Source: an uncultured Christensenella sp.
GTDB taxonomy: Bacteria; Bacillota; Clostridia; Christensenellales; CAG-917
Assembly (NCBI GenBank): GCA_910578325.1
Contig: CAJTQT010000001.1
Coordinates: forward strand, 4,527-68,526
Length of the DNA stretch: 64,000 nucleotides
Reading direction: 5' to 3'
The notes under the pieces were generated by a model, which was not told the DNA's origin, made no database searches, and saw only the letters and a list, made by a program, of their open reading frames with translations. Shown piece after piece: positions 2,446-44,857 of this stretch. The first letter of the stretch is position 1, and every line of letters begins with the position of its first letter. A program made the translations under genes and the position numbers.

Positions 2446-4042
2446 CGCTGTACTCCCAAAATCTGACTATTCTGTGCAGAGTGCGGAAAAATCTGCGCAT
2501 AGGCAAATACTCGATTTCGTCTCTGCCGACGATTCCGAAGAGGAAAGTCAGCCAAAGATAAACCGCCGAGCAGACCGCCGCGCCCACTATCGTCGCGACC
2601 AGATTGCTTCTGATAAGACTGCTTACGCCCAACCCTGCCAAAGCCATTATAACACCGCCGAGCAGATTTAGACCAATATTTTTTTCAAGATGCAGACCGC
2701 ATATTTTCAGATACGCGATATTTACTCCCGCAAGCGCAACCGCCGCCATAGCCAGCGAAGCAAGCGCGCCCCCTGCTATACCTATATACCGTACAAGCAC
2801 AACGCTTAGGATAATTTTTACCGTAATCGCACAAACAAGACTTAAAACTGCGAATTTGGTTCTATCAAGTGCCTGTAATAGCGAAACATATATCTGCATT
2901 GCGGAAAGCATAACTACGTTTGCCGCCACAATCCGCAACAGTTGAACTGCAAGATCGAGTTGCGCCGGCGTTAACGCGGGATATATAACCGGCAGAAGTC
3001 TGGGCGCAAAAACCATAAAATAGAAGGCGCAAGGAACGCCGATAAGGTATGCAAGTTTTATCGACAGCCTACTTTTGAGCATTACGCCGCCTATATCTCT
3101 CTGCACTCTCGACACCGAGACCGAGGGGACTATTACGACCGCCAGCGACATTATAATTACGATCGGCATATTTATAAGCGAATTGACAGGTCCCGAAAGC
3201 AGCCCGTATTGAGCGGTAGCGATTTCCTGCGCGACTCCTGAATCTTTGAGTACGTTTACAAGTATAATACTGTCAAAGAAATTTGAAAGCGGCATCAGCA
3301 CCGCGACAATCGCAATAGGGAACGCCACTTTAAACATCGTCCGCGCGTCGTTCCTGCTGACTTTGAGTTTTTCCCCTTTAAGTTTGCGTCCGCGCACGAA
3401 ATACGTTATAACGAGATACGCAAGCGCAAACGCCTCCGACGCCGCAATTCCCAAAAGCGCGCCGTTGACCGCCGCCGTAACTCCCTTAGGCATCAACGCG
3501 ACGGAAAGTCCTATTCCGACCGCCAGTTTGACAACTTGCTCGATAATGTTGGATACAGCCGTCGGGAGCATATACATCTCACCCTGAAACCAACCTCTGA
3601 ATCCCGCTATAAGACTGACAAGTATAATTGTCGGCGCGATTATCATAAAACCCGTACGCGTATCGGAGTTCCCCTGCCACTGCGCAAGTTTACCTGCAAG
3701 CGTAAATGTGAGAATTGCCAGTATCGCCCCGAGCGCGGTCAGCACGAGAATGGCGGATACAAGATATTTCTTCGTAGGCGCTCCCTCCGCCCGCTTCTCC
3801 GCCACCATACGCGAAAGCGCGGTGGGAATACCCGCCGTCGAGAGCACCATAAACAAAGCGAATACGGGAAAGACCAACTGGTACATTCCCATTCCCTGTG
3901 CGCCGAGAATATTCGTAAGCGGAACTCTGTAAAGCGCGCCGAGCATCTTTGCGACTATGCTGCCTATCGCCAGCACCGCCGCGCCCGAAAGCATAAAGCC
4001 TTTATTACGCTTTACCGCGTCTTTGGTCTTCTCTTTCGGCAT
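2435..4042 (-). CDS. MOP-superfamily polysaccharide/lipid-II flippase-like membrane protein (YabM/SpoVB/MurJ type)
   Basis: 535-aa polytopic membrane ORF with a MurJ/SpoVB-like N-terminus (GAAVLAIGSIVAKMLGALYRVPLTNILGAQGMGMYQ). It overlaps the mazG start by 11 nt and sits in spoVT-yabM-yabN synteny. Confidence 0.85.
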   Translation of the reverse strand: MPKEKTKDAVKRNKGFMLSGAAVLAIGSIVAKMLGALYRVPLTNILGAQGMGMYQLVFPVFALFMVLSTAGIPTALSRMVAEKRAEGAPTKKYLVSAILVLTALGAILAILTFTLAGKLAQWQGNSDTRTGFMIIAPTIILVSLIAGFRGWFQGEMYMLPTAVSNIIEQVVKLAVGIGLSVALMPKGVTAAVNGALLGIAASEAFALAYLVITYFVRGRKLKGEKLKVSRNDARTMFKVAFPIAIVAVLMPLSNFFDSIILVNVLKDSGVAQEIATAQYGLLSGPVNSLINMPIVIIMSLAVVIVPSVSVSRVQRDIGGVMLKSRLSIKLAYLIGVPCAFYFMVFAPRLLPVIYPALTPAQLDLAVQLLRIVAANVVMLSAMQIYVSLLQALDRTKFAVLSLVCAITVKIILSVVLVRYIGIAGGALASLAMAAVALAGVNIAYLKICGLHLEKNIGLNLLGGVIMALAGLGVSSLIRSNLVATIVGAAVCSAVYLWLTFLFGIVGRDEIEYLPMRRFFRTLHRIVRFWEYSDET

Positions 4043-16400: not shown

Positions 16401-16979
16401 TCAATTTTGATGTCTGAAAGTTAGCGAATCGTCTGTCATACTCTCAACGATTGCCAGACTCTCGATACGTACGCCCTCAGCGCGCAGTTCCTCTCCGCCT
16501 TTCTGAAAGCCCTTTTCTATCGCGATAGCGCAACCCACAAGCGTTGCTCCCGCTTGCTCTATGAGGCTTCTGAGTCCGCGGATTGCCGCGCCGTTGGCAA
16601 GAAAATCGTCTACAATGAGCACCCTGTCCTCGGGGAGCAGAAATTCTTTATCCACAATCACGGTTGAAGTGTTGTTATGCGTATAAGACACTACGTCCGC
16701 GCTGTAACAGTCGGCGGATACGTTTGCCGTCTTGCTCTTCTTAGCAAAAAGCACCGGCGTATGCATATAGTGTGCAGCAGCGCACGCTATGGCTATACCC
16801 GATGCCTCTATCGTCATAATTTTGGTAACGTTCTGCTCGCAAAAGCGCGCGGAAATTTCCTTGCCTATCTCGTCAAGCAGATGCTCGTCTATGAGATGAT
16901 TGAGAAACCCGCTGACTTTGAGGACATTTCCGGGATAAACCTTGCCGTCTCTCAAAATACGCTCTTCCAAAAGTTGCAT
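16401..16979 (-). CDS. xpt: Xanthine phosphoribosyltransferase
   Basis: MQLLEERILRDGKVYPGNVLKVSGFLNHLID is the Xpt N-terminus. PRPP loop is RVLIVDDFLANGAA. Confidence 0.9.
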   Translation of the reverse strand: MQLLEERILRDGKVYPGNVLKVSGFLNHLIDEHLLDEIGKEISARFCEQNVTKIMTIEASGIAIACAAAHYMHTPVLFAKKSKTANVSADCYSADVVSYTHNNTSTVIVDKEFLLPEDRVLIVDDFLANGAAIRGLRSLIEQAGATLVGCAIAIEKGFQKGGEELRAEGVRIESLAIVESMTDDSLTFRHQN

Positions 16980-17069: not shown

Positions 17070-17098
17070 ATTATATCCAAATAAAAATTCTCTGTCAA
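17070..17098 (-). promoter_or_regulatory. Near-consensus sigma-A promoter of the xpt-nucleoside ABC operon
   Basis: The minus strand reads TTGACA (17098-17093), a 17-nt spacer, then TATAAT (17075-17070), about 85 nt upstream of the xpt ATG. Confidence 0.6.
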
Positions 17099-39403: not shown

Positions 39404-39862
39404 ATGTCGAAACTTGTCTATAGGCTTAAAACACTTTTTGATAGTTATGATTTATCAACCGTAACTGGACAACAAGCGTTAGAAATCAGCAAAACACAAT
39501 TAGGTAGATACTTATCGGGATTTTATGTGCCGTCATTAAAAAACGCAATAAAGATTTGTGATTACTTTGACTGTTCACTGGATTACCTACTTGGTATAGA
39601 CGAAGAAAAAAATCGATTCGGAAATTTTGAAGAACCTAATTTTGAGATTTTTTCAAAAAGATTCCTACAAATTCTCAGCGAGCACAATTTAAGCATATAT
39701 CAGGTTGCGAAGAAATTAGAAATCAATAGAAACAATTGGACTTATTGGAATAAGAAAAAAACTTTACCGACTTTGGAAACAATTTATAAGTTGGCTAAAG
39801 AGTTCGAAGTATCTGCCGAATTCCTAATCGGTCGGACAAAAATTAAAAAAGGATCACTATGA
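39404..39862 (+). CDS. Dual-HTH XRE-family regulator, paralog 1
   Basis: Two Cro/C1-type HTH modules are present (..ISKTQLGRYLSG..AIKICDYFDCSLDYLLG and ..IYQVAKKLEINRNNWTYW..LAKEFEVSAEFLIGR). AAGGTGG RBS. Confidence 0.8.
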   Translation: MSKLVYRLKTLFDSYDLSTVTGQQALEISKTQLGRYLSGFYVPSLKNAIKICDYFDCSLDYLLGIDEEKNRFGNFEEPNFEIFSKRFLQILSEHNLSIYQVAKKLEINRNNWTYWNKKKTLPTLETIYKLAKEFEVSAEFLIGRTKIKKGSL

Positions 39863-40293
39863 ATTTCAATCTAAGATTAAAAGAACTTCTTGACGAACAA
39901 GAGATTTCTGCAAGAAAACTGTGCGAACAAATAGGTATCGACCATACGTCGATATATATGTATTTACAAGGCGGTTATCCAAATTTAGAAAACGCAGTTA
40001 AAATTGCGAACTATTTCGACTGTACGCTAAATTTCTTGTTCTGTATTGATGAACTTCCTAATCAATATAAGTTTTTCTATGAATATAATGCAGGCTTATT
40101 TTTCAAAAGATACACGGATTTATTACGACTAAACAAAATCTCTCATTACAAGGTCGGTAAGGAACTGAAATTAGGGAATTCTACATTTAAAAAATGGCAA
40201 AGTGGCTGCATCCCTAAAATCGAAACGCTGACAAAACTATCAAAATATTTTGGCTACTCTATTGATTACCTCGTTGGTCGTAGCGATACGTAA
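39859..40293 (+). CDS. Dual-HTH XRE-family regulator, paralog 2
   Basis: Same two-module layout as paralog 1 (..ARKLCEQIGIDHTSIYMYL..IANYFDCTLNFLF and ..HYKVGKELKLGNSTFKKW..LSKYFGYSIDYLVGRSD). ATGA start/stop overlap with paralog 1. Confidence 0.8.
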   Translation: MNFNLRLKELLDEQEISARKLCEQIGIDHTSIYMYLQGGYPNLENAVKIANYFDCTLNFLFCIDELPNQYKFFYEYNAGLFFKRYTDLLRLNKISHYKVGKELKLGNSTFKKWQSGCIPKIETLTKLSKYFGYSIDYLVGRSDT

Positions 40294-40305
40294 AGGATAA
40301 AACAT

Positions 40306-40749
40306 ATGACCGAATTTACAAGAATTTTAAAAGAATTATTAGATGAACAAAACACTACAATTCGTTCTTTAAGTCCGCAAATTGGTATTCCCTACCAGGA
40401 ACTGTACACATACGTTAATGATGATTATTTTCCGTCAATATATAACGCCGAAAAACTTGCGAACTATTTCGACTGTTCGTTTGATTATCTCTTCGGTCTT
40501 TCAGATACTTTTAAAACATCCGAATTTAAAGAAGTCGACATTTCTAAATTTTATCCGAGGTACTTAGAATTATTACAAGAAAACAAAATTAGCCACCACC
40601 ATTTATACAAAACATTAGGGTTGAGCAAATCAGGTCTGAGTAAATGGAGAAACGGTTCTGTTCCAAAGATTGAAAGCCTGTTAAAAATCGCCAAATTTTT
40701 TGGCACTCACATAGATTATTTAGTAGGACGTAGCGACATAAGGTATTAG
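40306..40749 (+). CDS. Dual-HTH XRE-family regulator, paralog 3
   Basis: Same layout (..LANYFDCSFDYLFG and ..IAKFFGTHIDYLVGRSD). AAGGA RBS. Lies 12 nt after paralog 2. Confidence 0.8.
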   Translation: MTEFTRILKELLDEQNTTIRSLSPQIGIPYQELYTYVNDDYFPSIYNAEKLANYFDCSFDYLFGLSDTFKTSEFKEVDISKFYPRYLELLQENKISHHHLYKTLGLSKSGLSKWRNGSVPKIESLLKIAKFFGTHIDYLVGRSDIRY

Positions 40750-40773
40750 CAAATCAAAACCCACAGTATCGGA

Positions 40774-40804
40774 GAAATACTTCGAAGACAAAATGAAATA
40801 TTGA
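40774..40804 (+). repeat. Direct repeat copy 2 (relic glyQS 3' end)
   Basis: GAAATACTTCGAAGACAAAATGAAATATTGA differs from copy 1 by one substitution. In the glyQS frame it would read KYFEDKMKY*. Confidence 0.85.
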
Positions 40805-40832
40805 TATATCATCATCTATATATTTATAATAT

Positions 40833-40865
40833 GAAGAAAACGCGCAGGACTGCGCGCTTCTTTTT
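40833..40865. terminator. Bidirectional terminator between the island/relic glyQS end and rex
   Basis: GAAGAAAACGCGCAGGACTGCGCGCTTCTTTTT has a GC-rich stem with A/T runs on both sides. Confidence 0.6.
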
Positions 40866-40898
40866 AAGTTGCGATATATACAAAAGCGACAGACCTGT

Positions 40899-41546
40899 TT
40901 ATTCTCCGAGCGGCGGAGTTTTCAACTGCATACTCAAAAGCGCGAGCGACGCCGCCAAATCTTCGCCTTTGACCGCTATGCCTTCGGGCAATGTAAGATG
41001 TACAGGCGCAAAACACCATATCGCTTTAATGCCCGCGTCAACCATACTGTCGGCAACCGACTGAGCCGCAGCCGACGGCACGCAGATAATGCCGAGCCGT
41101 ATTTTGTATCTTTCCACAATGCCTTTAAGTTTATCCGTCGAATAAACGGGCTTTCCGTTGACCGAAGTATCTACCACTTTTTCGTCGGCGTCGAAAGCGC
41201 ATACGATATTCAAGCCGTAGTTACGAAATCCGTCATAGCCGAGGATTGCCCTTCCCAGTCCGCCTACACCTACAAGCACAGCGTCGCGCGTATTGTTATA
41301 GCCGAGGAAATCTTCGAGGTCGGCAATGAGTTCTTTTGTGACGAATCCCGTCTTAGGCTTGCCCGCCACCGAGGATACGAGCGCAATGTCTTTGCGCACC
41401 TGTACGGGATTGAGCCCAAGTCCGTTTGCTATCGTAGTGCTCGAAACGTTGGGAACGTTCTGTTTGTTGAGTTGATACAGATAGCGCAAATAGGACGGCA
41501 ACCGCCTCAGCGTTGCTTTTGACATTTCGCTGTTCTGTTCCTGCAT
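40899..41546 (-). CDS. rex: Redox-sensing transcriptional repressor Rex
   Basis: ATLRRLPSYLRYL winged-helix N-terminus and a Rossmann GVGGLGRAI motif. 215 aa. Confidence 0.9.
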   Translation of the reverse strand: MQEQNSEMSKATLRRLPSYLRYLYQLNKQNVPNVSSTTIANGLGLNPVQVRKDIALVSSVAGKPKTGFVTKELIADLEDFLGYNNTRDAVLVGVGGLGRAILGYDGFRNYGLNIVCAFDADEKVVDTSVNGKPVYSTDKLKGIVERYKIRLGIICVPSAAAQSVADSMVDAGIKAIWCFAPVHLTLPEGIAVKGEDLAASLALLSMQLKTPPLGE

Positions 41547-41593
41547 ACTTTCACCTTATTCCGTCTCCTGCAAGGAGATTAGTAGTATTTTAT

Positions 41594-42967
41594 TCAGTCA
41601 TTCTGATTTTCAAGCGCTTCGTCGACTTTGAGCATTATTGCGCACTCGATGCGCTTTTTAAAGAGGTCGCAACCGTAAGCATAAACGCCGTTGACGCTTC
41701 CCGTCGCATTGTACGCGTTCGCCGCGCATCCTCCCGAACAATAGAGTCTCGCCCAGCAGTCGGCGCATTCCGTGCGAGAATATGCGTTGCATCTTTTAAA
41801 CTCGTCCCTGATATCCGTGCGGATTACGCCCTGCCAGATATCGCCCATAAGATAGTCTTTGTTCCCTACAAACTGGTGGCAGGGATACAACTCGCCCGTC
41901 GGTGTGACGGCAAGATATTCCGTGCCGCTCCCGCAACCCGATATCCTCTTATATATGCACGGTCCGCCGTCGAGGTCGAGCATATAGTGATAAAACGTAA
42001 ACGGCTTTCCTTCTTTGCGCCTTTTTATCATCATCTCTGCGAGTTTGCCGTACTCGGCGCAAACAATCAACTTGTCCTCTTCGGTCAAAGCGTACTTATC
42101 TGTCGGCGGAGATACAACAGGCTCCATACTCAGTTCGTCGAATCCGAGGTCGAGCATCGTCTGTATGTCCTTCGTGAAATCGGGATTGAAATGCGTAAAC
42201 GTGCCGCGCATATAATAACTCTTATCGCCGCGGGCTTTTACGAACTTCTGAAATTTCGGGACTATTACGTCGAAACTGCCCACGCCTCCCGCCGTTTTGC
42301 GGAAGCGGTCGTTCACCTCTTTTCTGCCGTCGAGACTGAGCACGACGTTGTCCATTTCTCTGTTGGCAAATTCGATAACCTCGTCATCAAGAAGCATACC
42401 GTTGGTCGTAAGCGTAAAGCGGAAATTCTTGCCGTGTTCCTTTTCGACCGAACGCGCGTAAGCGACAAGTTTTTTTACTACGTCGAAGTTCATAAGCGGT
42501 TCGCCGCCGAAAAAATCCACTTCGAGATTGCGACGCGTTCCGCTGTTTTCTATGAGGAAATCAAGGGCGCGTTTGCCCACTTCAAACGTCATAAGCGCGC
42601 GTTCGCCGTGGTATTTCCCCTGAGCCGCAAAACAATACTCGCAATCGAGATTGCACGTATGCGCAACGTGCAGACACATCGCCTTTACAACCGTTTCGCG
42701 CTTTGCAAGCGCGTCTGCGTTGGGGCGGAATTCATCGCAAGAGAATAAAACTCCCTGCGCTTTCAATGCGTCGACATCATCGAGACAAGCCTTTACTTCT
42801 TCCTCGCTTATCCCGTGTCGTATTGAAACCTGCCCAATGAGTTCTTCCCGCGGAGTGCTTTCGTATAAATTGATAATATCAAACGCAACGTCATCCACGC
42901 AATGCACGCTTCCGCTCGCTACGTCGAGCACGATATTATATCCGTTTTGTCTGAACGAATGTATCAT
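41594..42967 (-). CDS. Radical SAM/SPASM thioether cross-link-forming SCIFF peptide maturase
   Basis: CNLDCEYC radical-SAM cluster motif, a Cys-rich SPASM C-terminus (CADCWARLYCSGGCAANA), and a location immediately downstream of a SCIFF precursor. Confidence 0.9.
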   Translation of the reverse strand: MIHSFRQNGYNIVLDVASGSVHCVDDVAFDIINLYESTPREELIGQVSIRHGISEEEVKACLDDVDALKAQGVLFSCDEFRPNADALAKRETVVKAMCLHVAHTCNLDCEYCFAAQGKYHGERALMTFEVGKRALDFLIENSGTRRNLEVDFFGGEPLMNFDVVKKLVAYARSVEKEHGKNFRFTLTTNGMLLDDEVIEFANREMDNVVLSLDGRKEVNDRFRKTAGGVGSFDVIVPKFQKFVKARGDKSYYMRGTFTHFNPDFTKDIQTMLDLGFDELSMEPVVSPPTDKYALTEEDKLIVCAEYGKLAEMMIKRRKEGKPFTFYHYMLDLDGGPCIYKRISGCGSGTEYLAVTPTGELYPCHQFVGNKDYLMGDIWQGVIRTDIRDEFKRCNAYSRTECADCWARLYCSGGCAANAYNATGSVNGVYAYGCDLFKKRIECAIMLKVDEALENQND

Positions 42968-43003
42968 AATTTCTTTCGCTGACCTGAAAATTGCCGTATT
43001 TCA

Positions 43004-43030
43004 CAAAAAACGCCTATCGTCGGATAGGCG
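43004..43030 (-). terminator. Intra-operon terminator/attenuator between the SCIFF precursor and its maturase
   Basis: On the minus strand, CGCCTATC-CGAC-GATAGGCG is followed by TTTTTTG. Confidence 0.6.
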
Positions 43031-43056
43031 GCTTTCTGTATCTGATGCAAGTCGGA

Positions 43057-43203
43057 TTATTTGCCCGCTTTCTCGCACTTCTGATTTGCTACTCCGCAGG
43101 ATGTTTTGCACGCGGACTGGCAGGAAGTTTGGCATTCGCCGCAACCGCCGTTCTTTTTGCTATCGCTGAGATTGCGGGTTTTCAAAGTGACAATTCTTTT
43201 CAT
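43057..43203 (-). CDS. SCIFF (six-cysteines-in-forty-five) ranthipeptide precursor, 48 aa
   Basis: Hand translation gives MKRIVTLKTRNLSDSKKNGGCGECQTSCQSACKTSCGVANQKCEKAGK*. The GGCGECQTSCQSACKTSC core is the SCIFF hallmark. AAGGAG RBS. It is below the ORF-track size cutoff. Confidence 0.9.
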   Translation of the reverse strand: MKRIVTLKTRNLSDSKKNGGCGECQTSCQSACKTSCGVANQKCEKAGK

Positions 43204-43244
43204 TATCGGTACTCCTTTGAGTGTTGTTTTTATATTCTATAAGC

Positions 43245-43273
43245 ATTATATATACCTATGCGCCTTTTGTCAA
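43245..43273 (-). promoter_or_regulatory. Consensus sigma-A promoter of the SCIFF operon
   Basis: The minus strand reads TTGACA (43273-43268), a 17-nt spacer, then TATAAT (43250-43245). Confidence 0.65.
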
Positions 43274-43363
43274 GCGCAACGGCTTGTATACTTTACCGCG
43301 CCTTAATCACGTATTTACAACTTGCACAAACTGCAAGTCGTGATTAAACCGAATCAATATTTC

Positions 43364-44857
43364 CTATTCTTTTTCGGGAGCCTGCGCCACGACGTAAATT
43401 CTGTCGGGAAACTGTTTGCGTTCGCTCTCCACACTCACTCCGCTTTCATACAGAAACATCGCGTGTCTGATGAAATCCGGACTTATCTTTTCTCCTTTAC
43501 ATATTATGGGACATCCCGGAGGGTACGCCCAGACGTTTTCGGCGCATACAAGTCCGGTTGAAGTATCAAGATTTGCAAATTCGCAGTTTAATTTATACGT
43601 TTCGTGCGGTTCAAATACCTTTTTCGGAATTTTAACGTTATTTATATTCACGAGTCCGTATCTTTCGTTCACTGAGTTTTCCATTGCGAAAACCGCTTCT
43701 GAAAGCGCGAGATACGCGTTTAACGAATCGCCCGCACCCGTCATTGCGAGCGCGTAATTTGCGCTTGCCATTTCAAGTTCGATCTTATAATCGCCGCGAA
43801 GTTCACGCATAAAAGATATGCCGCTTATCGCGCTGTCGACTGTCAGGAAAACAAGTTTGGTTTTATCGTACGCAAACACTCTGCCCTCTCCGTTGCCGTT
43901 GAACAGCCTTATACGCTTAAAACGGGACAGGCTTCGTCTGAATTTATCAACCTGTTCGCTCCACCTGTCGAGTTCGCGCAGACCGTCGCATTCGAAAAAC
44001 CGCATACAGCCCTCGATTGACGCCATCAGAACGTACGACGGCGAACTTGTCTGAAACACCGCAAGATTTCTGTCTATTGCGTTTACATCGACGTTGTCGC
44101 TGCAAATATGCAGAATCGCCGTCTGAGTTAGACAGGGAAGCGTCTTATGCAGACTGTTTACGACAACGTCCGCGCCGAGATTTCTCGCGCTCTGCTCAAA
44201 CTTTTTGCAAAGCCCCAGATGCGCGCCGTGCGCCTCGTCCACAAACAGTTTCGCATTGTGCGACCGACAGATTGCCGCTATGGATTTTATATCGGAAATC
44301 ACGCCCTCGTAGGTAGGACTCGTGACGACTACAAGCGTCACGTCAGGATGTTCGTCAAGCGCATTTGCTATATCCTCGGGCATTACGGAGCCGTAAAAAC
44401 CGTATTCCTCGAAGTATGCTGGCGCAACGTAATACGGACGCAAGCCGCACAACTCCACCGCATTGTACACGCTCCTGTGGCAATTTCGGGCAACGAGTAT
44501 TCCGTCCCCGCTCGACGTCATCGCTCTGATTGCCGCAAGCACTCCGGCAGTACTTCCGCAAGTGAGATATCTGCTCTCTCTCACCCCGTACAGATCTGCC
44601 GCCCTGCGCTGCGCGTCGGCGAGAACGCCGTTGCAATTGTGCAGATTGTCAAATCCCTCGATTTCCGTAATATCCATTTCCTGCAAATTGCTCAGAAACG
44701 AATAGTCCTTAGAACGCTTATGTCCGGGCATATGAAAAGGAATATAGCCCTCTTGCGAGTGCTCGCGCAAAAGCATTGCAACCGACTTTGCATCCCGCGA
44801 TTTCACGCCCGCGACCGCTTTACCCGACGTTTGAATGTTTTTAAATTTCTTTCTCAT
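43364..44857 (-). CDS. PLP-dependent Orn/Lys/Arg decarboxylase family protein (YaaO/SpeA-like)
   Basis: IPFHMPGHK, the SLHKTL (PLP lysine) block and a C-terminal OKR_DC_1_C-like domain are present. 497 aa. Confidence 0.85.
   Translation of the reverse strand: MRKKFKNIQTSGKAVAGVKSRDAKSVAMLLREHSQEGYIPFHMPGHKRSKDYSFLSNLQEMDITEIEGFDNLHNCNGVLADAQRRAADLYGVRESRYLTCGSTAGVLAAIRAMTSSGDGILVARNCHRSVYNAVELCGLRPYYVAPAYFEEYGFYGSVMPEDIANALDEHPDVTLVVVTSPTYEGVISDIKSIAAICRSHNAKLFVDEAHGAHLGLCKKFEQSARNLGADVVVNSLHKTLPCLTQTAILHICSDNVDVNAIDRNLAVFQTSSPSYVLMASIEGCMRFFECDGLRELDRWSEQVDKFRRSLSRFKRIRLFNGNGEGRVFAYDKTKLVFLTVDSAISGISFMRELRGDYKIELEMASANYALAMTGAGDSLNAYLALSEAVFAMENSVNERYGLVNINNVKIPKKVFEPHETYKLNCEFANLDTSTGLVCAENVWAYPPGCPIICKGEKISPDFIRHAMFLYESGVSVESERKQFPDRIYVVAQAPEKE

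What the first reader, a model, noticed from the sequence alone, without database searches (positions are those of the whole stretch)
41594..43273. Unannotated SCIFF ranthipeptide precursor with built-in attenuator ahead of its radical-SAM maturase
A 48-aa ORF at 43057-43203 on the minus strand encodes MKRIVTLKTRNLSDSKKNGGCGECQTSCQSACKTSCGVANQKCEKAGK. This is the hallmark six-Cys SCIFF core, and the ORF is invisible in the six-frame track. It is driven by a perfect TTGACA-17-TATAAT promoter. A hairpin plus U6 (43004-43030) follows before the SPASM radical-SAM maturase at 41594-42967, which would give precursor transcript in excess of enzyme transcript. The family is known from Clostridia, and its maturases form Cys-to-Thr/other thioether links. 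The physiological role of SCIFF peptides is still unknown, and here the operon sits next to rex.
Basis: partly seen in the sequence, partly recalled or inferred. Interest (0 to 1): 0.5.

Follow-up and report, generated by a model that had tools for sequence, protein, structure and literature searches.

The report
Uncalled SCIFF peptide gene with terminator
This is a real but ordinary copy of a well-known two-gene system of Clostridia: a small cysteine-rich peptide (SCIFF), the enzyme that cross-links it, and a conserved terminator hairpin between the two genes; the peptide gene was simply missed by gene callers.

Summary
The 48-aa ORF at 43057-43203(-) scores 81.4 bits on TIGR03973/PF13165 (cut-offs 50/27). 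The 457-aa protein at 41594-42967(-) scores 751 bits on TIGR03974 (cut-off 425) and aligns end to end with CteB (PDB 5WGG, E 9e-167). A 12/12 TTGACA-17-TATAAT promoter and an 8-bp hairpin plus T6 sit where stated.

Gene calls on the source contigs skip the peptide, although relatives are routinely named "six-cysteine ranthipeptide SCIFF".

Comparison shows the layout belongs to the family, not to this locus:
- 72 of 74 loci have a hairpin plus T-tract between scfA and scfB, against 10.5% of shuffles.
- 68 of 76 have a near-consensus promoter with a 17-nt spacer.
- The characterised cteA-cteB locus has both.

There is no room for a separate scfB promoter, so read-through is required. I found no evidence of regulated attenuation. 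A leaky terminator after the precursor gene is a known device, as in mccA-mccB.

The rex adjacency is specific to this lineage, and no Rex box is present.

Three side observations are more interesting:
- A PLP "amino acid decarboxylase" gene sits next to scfAB in 70 of 80 relatives.
- Six relatives carry fused double-SCIFF precursors.
- One relative has TGA at the first Cys codon.

Verdict: a new member of a known kind, of low interest.

The parts
43268..43273 (-). -35 hexamer TTGACA of the scfA promoter
   Evidence: 12 of 12 matches with a 17-nt spacer; 2 perfect sites in 64 kb against 0.01 expected; a promoter with at least 10 of 12 matches and a 17-nt spacer in 68 of 76 loci, against 66 of 1520 shuffles.
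43245..43250 (-). -10 hexamer TATAAT of the scfA promoter. The inferred transcription start is near 43238, giving a 5' UTR of about 35 nt.
   Evidence: The transcription start is inferred from the spacing, not measured.
43212..43218 (-). Shine-Dalgarno AAAGGAG, 8 nt upstream of the scfA ATG
   Evidence: Read. A GGAGG or AGGAG motif is present in nearly all relatives (last column).
43057..43203 (-). scfA, the 48-aa SCIFF ranthipeptide precursor (the end coordinate includes the stop codon)
   Evidence: 81.4 bits on TIGR03973 and on PF13165; core codons 19-44 show 10-15 synonymous against 0-1 nonsynonymous differences from relatives; not called on the source contigs.
43005..43037 (-). Intrinsic-terminator-like hairpin. 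The core stem is 43030-43011 with loop CGAC; the A-tract at 43037-43031 pairs with the T6 at 43010-43005. Proposed to act as a leaky terminator between scfA and scfB.
   Evidence: -14.0 kcal/mol; covariation. Conserved in 72 of 74 loci and in the A. thermocellus, P. thermosuccinogenes and R. josui loci. Its termination efficiency has not been measured.
41594..42967 (-). scfB, a radical SAM/SPASM thioether-forming SCIFF maturase, 457 aa
   Evidence: 751 bits on TIGR03974. Radical_SAM, Fer4_12 and SPASM domains; aligns with CteB (5WGG/5WHY) at E 9e-167 over residues 1-450, with the CX3CX2C motif and all SPASM cysteines aligned.
40899..41546 (-). rex, the redox-sensing repressor gene. It starts 47 bp after the scfB stop with no terminator between, so it is possibly co-transcribed. 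This placement is specific to this lineage.
   Evidence: NF003994, 271 bits; no terminator-like site on the - strand between 41547 and 41593, and weak 9 of 12 promoter-like sites at 41613-41584; adjacent only in the window.
40837..40860 (-). Terminator-like hairpin after rex; the probable 3' end of the transcription unit
   Evidence: 10-pair stem with 5 GC pairs, followed by TTTTCTTC.
43364..44857 (-). Gene for a PLP-dependent enzyme of the Orn/Lys/Arg-decarboxylase fold (OKR_DC_1), immediately upstream and in the same direction. It is a conserved neighbour of scfAB in this and related orders. Its role in the system is unproven.
   Evidence: PF01276 at 4.9e-49. PDB 2X3L at 5.9e-44; adjacent in 73 of 83 loci.
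43303..43347 (-). Nested inverted repeat (TTAATCACG...CGTGATTAA around ACTTGCA..TGCAAGT) between the PLP gene stop and the scfA -35 hexamer. It has no T-tract. It could be a 3' stem-loop of the PLP gene or an operator; its function is unknown.
   Evidence: the region folds at -27.9 kcal/mol. It is not conserved in L001-L005.

Best explanation
The locus is a standard SCIFF ranthipeptide cassette, scfA-scfB, from an uncultured gut member of the Clostridia.

Proposed mechanism, step by step:
1. A consensus sigma-A promoter drives a short leader with a good ribosome-binding site and the 48-aa precursor ScfA.
2. About 20 nt after the stop codon, an intrinsic terminator stops a fraction of the polymerases. 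This gives an abundant monocistronic scfA mRNA whose 3' hairpin also protects it.
3. The remaining polymerases read through into scfB, and here probably into rex as well, ending at the hairpin after rex.
4. ScfB, a radical SAM enzyme with a SPASM domain and an N-terminal leader-binding domain like CteB, binds the ScfA leader and installs thioether cross-link(s) from Cys to a side-chain carbon. The link would most plausibly be Cys32 to Thr34, because Thr34 is invariant here whereas the other reported acceptor position, 37, is Gly.

What is shown: family membership of both genes, the sequence elements, their conservation, and the lack of room for an scfB promoter.

What is inferred: partial termination, the resulting excess of precursor over enzyme transcript, co-transcription of rex, and the chemistry of the cross-link.
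For: Family membership: searches give HMM scores far above the curated cut-offs. One search shows a full-length alignment to CteB with all cluster cysteines conserved.

The ORF is translated and under selection: 10-15 synonymous against 0-1 nonsynonymous codon changes in the core.

Promoter: 12 of 12 matches. At least 10 of 12 with a 17-nt spacer in 68 of 76 loci, against 4.3% of shuffles. Of the eight loci that fell below 10 of 12, three of the fused double-SCIFF genes (L014, L023, L048) showed a perfect promoter once the true start was used; a fourth fused gene (L072) already scored 12 of 12.

Terminator: a hairpin plus T-tract in 72 of 74 loci against 10.5% of shuffles, with quite different stem sequences. 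Compensatory changes occur among the nearest relatives. The same element is present in the distant, experimentally studied cteA-cteB locus and in two other genera.

Read-through is needed: only 37 nt lie between the T-tract and the scfB ATG. The only promoter-like site there (9 of 12) has its -10 hexamer overlapping the start codon. In relatives the whole spacer is typically 52-97 nt, mostly taken up by the hairpin.

Precedent for the logic: at mccA-mccB an intergenic intrinsic terminator yields an abundant short precursor transcript and a minor long one (PMC4231749).

Thr34 against position 37: together with the reported cross-links summarised in PMC8326336.
Against: No transcript data exist for this organism, so the termination efficiency and the scfA:scfB mRNA ratio are unknown.

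The hairpin might act mainly as a barrier to 3' exonucleases or as a processing site rather than as a terminator.

The scfB ribosome-binding site here is weak (GAAAGAAA), so translation could limit enzyme level independently of transcription.

Weak 9 of 12 promoter-like sites near the end of scfB could give rex its own transcript.

The cross-link position is disputed even for CteA (PMC8326336) and was not tested here.
Confidence: 0.8

Rival explanations
1. The hairpin is mainly an RNA-stability or processing element. The operon would be transcribed as one unit and then cleaved, with the stem-loop protecting the 3' end of the scfA segment from exonucleases. The precursor excess would then come from differential decay, not from termination.
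For: The element is a stable stem directly after the ORF in nearly all loci. In some loci the T-tract is short or interrupted, for example L005 TTTGTC, L016 TAATG and L062 CCTCTTTG, which would make them poor terminators but still good 3' protectors. In mccA both termination and message stabilisation contribute (PMC4231749).
Against: In the window and in most relatives the stem is followed by 5-8 T, often with a matching upstream A-tract. That is the signature of an intrinsic terminator rather than of a bare stabiliser. The two mechanisms do not exclude each other.
Confidence: 0.12
2. The hairpin is an efficient, complete terminator, and scfB (with rex) is transcribed from its own promoter. 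The two genes would then be expressed independently.
For: A weak promoter-like site (TTTTCA-16-TATGAT, 9 of 12) lies at 42990-42963. A few relatives have long scfA-scfB spacers (224-1313 nt in L020, L022, L029, L052, L057 and L070) that could hold a promoter.
Against: The -10 hexamer of that site overlaps the scfB start codon, so its transcripts would lack the ATG. Only 37 nt separate the T-tract from the ATG. Most relatives have 52-97 nt in total, mostly hairpin.
Confidence: 0.04
3. The element is a regulated attenuator. Read-through into scfB and rex would be switched by a signal such as redox state through Rex, ribosome position or a ligand, rather than being a fixed leak.
For: Rex lies directly downstream in this genome. 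Ribosome-controlled termination is documented for mccA (PMC4231749). In the relatives the hairpin usually begins only about 3-28 nt after the stop codon, close enough for a terminating ribosome to influence its folding.
Against: No Rex operator lies within the locus under either of two consensus patterns. There is no Rfam element or riboswitch. No alternative antiterminator pairing appears in the fold of the transcript. The rex adjacency is not conserved.
Confidence: 0.04

Closest known systems
CteA/CteB of Acetivibrio (Clostridium) thermocellus (SCIFF precursor and maturase; PDB 5WGG, 5WHY)
   Same: - ScfB aligns with CteB over its full length at E 9e-167, with the CX3CX2C and SPASM cysteines conserved.
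- The peptide core GGCGECQTSCQSACKTSC is identical, with the same numbering of Cys32 and Thr34.
- The gene order is the same, with a hairpin plus T6 between precursor and maturase and a near-consensus promoter about 33 nt before the start.
   Different: - Position 37 is Thr in CteA but Gly here and in 79 of 80 related core copies. A Cys32-Thr37 link cannot form here.
- The neighbours differ. cteAB and its relatives in Pseudoclostridium and Ruminiclostridium lie in housekeeping clusters just upstream of secDF, with yajC immediately upstream in the latter two. Here the neighbours are a PLP decarboxylase-fold gene and rex.
SCIFF loci of Oscillospirales and other gut Clostridia (for example Faecalibacterium; 'Firmicutes bacterium CAG:475')
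   Same: - ScfB is 66-80% identical and the peptide 70-92% identical.
- The promoter, Shine-Dalgarno and terminator layout is the same.
- The peptides are annotated by NCBI as 'six-cysteine ranthipeptide SCIFF'.
   Different: - In 58 loci the PLP gene follows scfB, mostly with overlapping stop and start codons. Here and in 12 other loci a PLP gene from a different clade precedes scfA.
- Rex is adjacent only here.
- The peptide gene of this genome was not called.
mccA-mccB intergenic terminator of the microcin C operon (PMC4231749)
   Same: A very small precursor ORF under a promoter is followed by an intrinsic terminator ahead of the modifying-enzyme gene. The result there is an abundant short precursor transcript and a minor read-through transcript.
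   Different: The peptide and enzyme families are unrelated, and the host is a Gram-negative plasmid. Ribosome-induced termination was demonstrated there. Here nothing is measured and no upstream anti-terminating sequence is evident.

Membership tests
SCIFF precursor (TIGR03973 / PF13165) | Score above the curated HMM cut-off over the full model | tested here: met
   81.4 bits on each model against cut-offs of 50 (TIGR03973, positions 1-43 of 43) and 27 (PF13165, positions 1-44 of 44).
SCIFF precursor (TIGR03973 / PF13165) | Six Cys in about 45 residues with the conserved core GGCGECQTSCQSACKTSC...C | tested here: met
   Cys at 21, 24, 28, 32, 36 and 43 in a 48-aa peptide. The core is identical to CteA and to 79 of 80 related copies.
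SCIFF precursor (TIGR03973 / PF13165) | Encoded immediately upstream of an ScfB-type radical SAM gene | tested here: met
   An 89-nt spacer on the same strand. PMC5300114 describes the pairing as obligatory.
ScfB, SCIFF maturase (TIGR03974) | Score above the equivalog cut-off and below the cut-off of the 'not_ScfB' exception model | tested here: met
   751.2 bits against 425. NF040492 scores 552, below its cut-off of 855. PapB, QhpD, CcpM and anSME models all score far below their cut-offs.
ScfB, SCIFF maturase (TIGR03974) | Radical SAM CX3CX2C motif plus SPASM auxiliary-cluster cysteines, and an N-terminal leader-binding domain as in CteB | tested here: met
   C105, C109 and C112, and all C-terminal Cys, align with CteB. 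The alignment starts at residue 1. Pfam finds Radical_SAM and Fer4_12; its SPASM hit (20.8 bits) falls just under the 21.5-bit cut-off, but the TIGR04085 SPASM-domain model scores 63.5 against 27.
Ranthipeptide (radical non-alpha thioether peptide) | A thioether from Cys sulfur to a beta or gamma carbon of an acceptor residue, installed by the rSAM enzyme | not testable with these tools
   This needs co-expression with MS/MS and NMR. By sequence, acceptor Thr34 is present and Thr37 is absent (PMC8326336).
Intrinsic (Rho-independent) terminator acting as a leaky terminator within the operon | A GC-rich stem-loop followed directly by a U-tract on the transcribed strand | tested here: met
   8-bp stem with 5 GC pairs, a 4-nt loop and T6. 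-14.0 kcal/mol when extended. Conserved with covariation.
Intrinsic (Rho-independent) terminator acting as a leaky terminator within the operon | Partial termination, with both short and read-through transcripts | not testable with these tools
   Only indirect evidence is available: there is no room for an scfB promoter.
Regulated transcription attenuator | A mutually exclusive antiterminator structure, or a sensor element that controls the terminator | tested here: not met
   No alternative pairing in the MFE or centroid fold of the transcript. No Rfam family matches. No Rex box is found.
Rex regulon member | A Rex operator (TTGTTAA-N4-TTAACAA or TGTGAA-N4-TTCACA type) in the promoter region | tested here: not met
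   No match lies within 40800-43400 at up to 3 or up to 2 mismatches respectively. Counts over the whole window are at or below the chance expectation.

The most novel reading that the evidence does not exclude
In the gut orders related to this genome, the SCIFF cassette may really be a three-gene unit. An uncharacterised PLP-dependent enzyme of the Orn/Lys/Arg-decarboxylase fold sits in the same direction and immediately next to scfAB in 70 of 80 species-level genomes.
- In 56-58 of them it follows scfB, mostly with overlapping stop and start codons and no terminator between.
- In the window's lineage, an enzyme from a second clade sits just upstream of scfA.

If this linkage is functional, SCIFF maturation or action would involve a PLP-dependent step or an amine product. 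That would be a first handle on what SCIFF does.
Probability: 0.15. Interest if true: 0.55.

Novelty: new member of a known kind. Interest (0 to 1): 0.2.

Why it matters
For this window the practical result is an annotation fix. A conserved, translated 48-aa gene is missing from the gene calls, a failure already described for SCIFF (PMC5300114).

Beyond this locus, the comparison shows that SCIFF genes carry the expression signature of a strongly and constitutively expressed housekeeping peptide: a consensus promoter, a short leader, a strong ribosome-binding site and a terminator placed before the enzyme gene. This fits their description as 'housekeeping-like' small proteins (bioRxiv 10.1101/494179) and argues against a typical inducible antibiotic cluster. 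I found no paper linking SCIFF with a terminator, but the device itself is well known from other RiPP operons.

The invariant Thr34 and the Gly at position 37 bear on the published disagreement over which residue accepts the thioether.

Tried and rejected
- Rex control. I searched two Rex-operator consensus patterns with mismatches. Neither hit the locus, and the window-wide counts were at or below chance. The rex adjacency is not conserved. Rejected as a family feature.
- Riboswitch, known sRNA or leader element. Rfam gave no match at gathering thresholds over the whole window, and only an irrelevant weak hit at E up to 1 over 40700-43500.
- Regulated antiterminator. The fold of the full scfA transcript shows only the terminator.
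- Separate scfB promoter. The only candidate overlaps the start codon.
- PDB search with the peptide. Only an insignificant match (E 0.22) to a ferredoxin-type Cys motif of epoxyqueuosine reductase. Not pursued.
- The inverted repeat upstream of the promoter (43303-43347) as a conserved operator. It is not conserved in the five nearest relatives.
- B. subtilis-like synteny as an explanation for the PLP neighbour. In Faecalibacterium the gene after the PLP gene is a SipL-domain gene, and the Acetivibrio-type loci lack the PLP gene altogether. The link is therefore specific to some lineages and remains unexplained.
- Selenocysteine reading of the TGA in L031. No distinctive downstream hairpin compared with the other loci. 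Left open.
- Literature searches for SCIFF with 'terminator' and with 'decarboxylase'. Nothing relevant. A search for scfA/scfB was swamped by 'SCFA'.
Full report
**Observation.**
- The 48-aa ORF at 43057..43203(-) encodes MKRIVTLKTRNLSDSKKNGGCGECQTSCQSACKTSCGVANQKCEKAGK.
- The promoter is TTGACA (43273-43268), a 17-nt spacer and TATAAT (43250-43245), scoring 12 of 12. Perfect sites of this form occur twice in the 64-kb window against 0.01 expected.
- AAAGGAG lies 8 nt upstream of the ATG.
- The stem CGCCTATC/GATAGGCG with loop CGAC (43030-43011) is followed by T6 (43010-43005). With the flanking A-tract it forms a 33-nt hairpin of -14.0 kcal/mol that persists in the fold of the whole transcript.
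- The 457-aa ORF at 41594..42967(-) starts 37 nt after the T-tract.
- Rex (40899..41546) follows 47 bp after its stop, and a terminator-like hairpin closes the unit at 40860-40837.

**Identity.**
- The peptide scores 81.4 bits on TIGR03973 (cut-off 50) and on PF13165 (cut-off 27).
- The enzyme scores 751.2 bits on TIGR03974 (cut-off 425).
- The 'not_ScfB' exception model (552 against 855), PapB, QhpD, CcpM and anaerobic sulfatase maturase (98 against 349) all fall far short.
- The enzyme aligns from residue 1 to 450 with CteB of Acetivibrio thermocellus (PDB 5WGG/5WHY, E 9e-167). The CX3CX2C motif and every SPASM cysteine are conserved.
- The ORF is translated and under purifying selection. 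Against seven relatives, core codons 19-44 carry 10-15 synonymous and 0-1 nonsynonymous differences.

**Is it unannotated?** ScfB, Rex and the upstream PLP enzyme of this very contig are in the 15-billion-protein collection (NCBI, ENA, Logan), but the peptide is not. The gene calls on the source contigs (an ENA metagenome assembly and a Logan assembly) jump from the PLP gene to scfB. Peptides of relatives are present and named 'six-cysteine ranthipeptide SCIFF'. [quoted passage not shown]

**Comparative anatomy.** A scan of one genome per species returned 80 loci with ScfB 66-80% identical. Most are gut and rumen Clostridia MAGs, along with Faecalibacterium and Hominifimenecus. scfA lies upstream on the same strand in 78 of the 80 loci in the set analysed, the window included.
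- A stable hairpin (at most -7 kcal/mol, usually -13 to -28) ending in or followed by a T-tract lies between scfA and scfB in 72 of 74 testable loci. The same test passes in 78 of 740 shuffled spacers.
- The stems differ widely in sequence (TGCCGCC.., CGCATAGG.., GTGAAAAG..). An unguided alignment of the five closest sequences shows compensatory changes in 3 of 15 pairs.
- A promoter with at least 10 of 12 matches and a 17-nt spacer lies about 30-35 nt before the start codon in 68 of 76 loci, against 4.3% of shuffles. Seventeen loci score 12 of 12.
- Three of the eight loci below 10 of 12 (L014, L023, L048) are fused double-SCIFF genes whose true start has a perfect promoter.
- To reach beyond this clade I rebuilt the CteB sequence from the PDB alignment, searched with it and fetched the A. 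thermocellus, Pseudoclostridium thermosuccinogenes and Ruminiclostridium josui loci. All three have a hairpin plus T6 between precursor and maturase. Two of them have TTTTCA-17-TATAAT 32-34 nt before the start.

**Mechanism.** Only 37 nt separate the T-tract from the scfB ATG. The single promoter-like site there has its -10 hexamer on the start codon. Relatives usually have 52-97 nt in all, mostly taken up by the hairpin. scfB can therefore be expressed only by read-through, which means the terminator must be leaky. This is an inference, not a measurement. The expected outcome is an abundant short scfA mRNA and a minor scfA-scfB(-rex) mRNA. The same logic was shown experimentally for mccA-mccB (PMC4231749).

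I found nothing that would make the leak regulated. There is no alternative pairing, no Rfam element and no Rex operator. 'Leaky terminator' is a better name than 'attenuator'. A contribution from 3'-end protection of the mRNA cannot be separated from termination without transcript data.

**Chemistry.** CteA carries Cys32, Thr34 and Thr37. The literature disagrees on whether Cys32 links to Thr37 or, through the gamma carbon, to Thr34 (PMC8326336). The window peptide and 79 of 80 related core copies read C32-K-T34-S-C36-G37. Thr37 is absent and Thr34 is invariant. If one conserved cross-link exists across the family, Thr34 is the better candidate. This is an inference from conservation only.

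**Rex.** Rex is directly downstream only in this genome. It lies 2.3 kb downstream in L001 and L003, behind a tRNA-editing-domain gene and a membrane-protein gene. It is absent within 4 kb in the other loci. Co-transcription of rex with scfB is possible here, since there is no terminator in the 47-bp gap, although weak promoter-like sites lie near the end of scfB. It is not a family trait.

**A conserved neighbour.** The gene upstream of scfA (43364..44857) is a PLP enzyme of the Orn/Lys/Arg-decarboxylase fold (PF01276, 4.9e-49; PDB 2X3L, 5.9e-44).
- A homologue lies next to scfAB and in the same direction in 73 of 83 loci. It is downstream of scfB in 58 and upstream of scfA in 15.
- The two positions correspond to two clades that are 23-32% identical to each other. 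Both keep the S[AL]HKT lysine motif.
- In the downstream type, the start overlaps or abuts the scfB stop (-4 to +4 nt) in most loci. No locus has a terminator between the two genes, and 33 of 54 have one after the PLP gene.
- The Faecalibacterium protein is annotated with exactly that overlapping start and only as 'amino acid decarboxylase'.
- The Acetivibrio-type loci lack it. There scfAB sits just upstream of (HD-)secDF, with yajC and a DUF3792 gene immediately upstream in two of the three loci and lspA and a pseudouridine synthase gene in A. thermocellus. A recent pangenome study likewise reports only the precursor and the RRE/rSAM gene as conserved across orders (bioRxiv 10.1101/2025.02.12.637840).

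Whether the PLP link is functional or merely inherited gene order is open. I rate a functional link at about 0.15.

**Verdict.** The locus is a new, previously uncalled member of a very large and well-described family; more than 8000 ScfB homologues were scored in each of two searches. The terminator-before-the-enzyme design is a known device. The quorum-sensing proposal for SCIFF (Chen et al. 2020, cited in PMC8326336 and PMC8102284) shows the function is no longer wholly unexplored. Interest is low. The by-products are the family-wide expression architecture, the PLP neighbour, the fused double precursors and a TGA at a Cys codon, and these are worth more than the locus itself.

Noticed in passing
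window 43364-44857(-); loci L001-L080 next to scfAB: A PLP-dependent Orn/Lys/Arg-decarboxylase-fold gene lies next to scfAB and in the same direction in 73 of 83 loci. It falls into two clades: one downstream of scfB, mostly with overlapping stop and start codons, and one upstream of scfA as in the window. It is absent from the Acetivibrio-type loci and is annotated only as 'amino acid decarboxylase'.
   Followed up: partly
L014 3676-3939, L023 3677-3940, L048 3596-3871, L070 about 2915-3190, L072 about 3649-3924, L080 about 1079-1342: Single ORFs of 87-91 aa encode two complete SCIFF units in tandem (leader plus core, twice). Two were scanned and each gives two full TIGR03973 matches. The three tested for a promoter (L014, L023, L048) have a perfect one. 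The two exact sequences I looked up are not in the protein collection.
   Followed up: partly
L031 3742-3891: In an AT-rich Clostridia MAG (29.7% GC) the scfA gene has TGA exactly at the first Cys codon (Y-G-TGA-G-E-C), plus A31E, T34A and G37D. Its promoter, Shine-Dalgarno and two tandem terminators are intact, and scfB has no in-frame TGA. It could encode selenocysteine, be a pseudogene or contain a sequencing error. No distinctive SECIS-like fold was seen.
   Followed up: partly
L083-L085 (A. thermocellus, P. thermosuccinogenes, R. josui): In these genera scfA-scfB sits just upstream of (HD-)secD-secF, among housekeeping genes. In P. thermosuccinogenes and R. josui the order is queA-tgt-yajC-DUF3792-scfA-scfB; in A. 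thermocellus the upstream genes are lspA and a pseudouridine synthase gene. This places the SCIFF pair next to protein-export genes.
   Followed up: no
window 43303-43347(-): A nested perfect inverted repeat (TTAATCACG...CGTGATTAA enclosing ACTTGCA..TGCAAGT) lies between the PLP gene stop and the scfA -35 hexamer. It has no T-tract and is not conserved in the five nearest relatives. Its function is unknown.
   Followed up: partly
window 17070-17098(-) and 16401-16979(-): The only other perfect TTGACA-17-TATAAT site in the window lies about 90 nt upstream of a 192-aa ORF that looks like xanthine phosphoribosyltransferase. This identification rests on reading the sequence and is not HMM-tested. 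No purine riboswitch or other Rfam family is detected in the leader.
   Followed up: no
window 39404-40749(+): Three tandem paralogous genes of 144-152 aa each (HTH_3/XRE-type DNA-binding proteins) lie head to tail, converging on the end of rex.
   Followed up: no
window 43057-43203(-) and 79 of 80 related core copies: Residue 37, one of the two acceptor residues reported for the CteA thioether (Thr37), is Gly throughout this clade, while Thr34 is invariant.
   Followed up: yes
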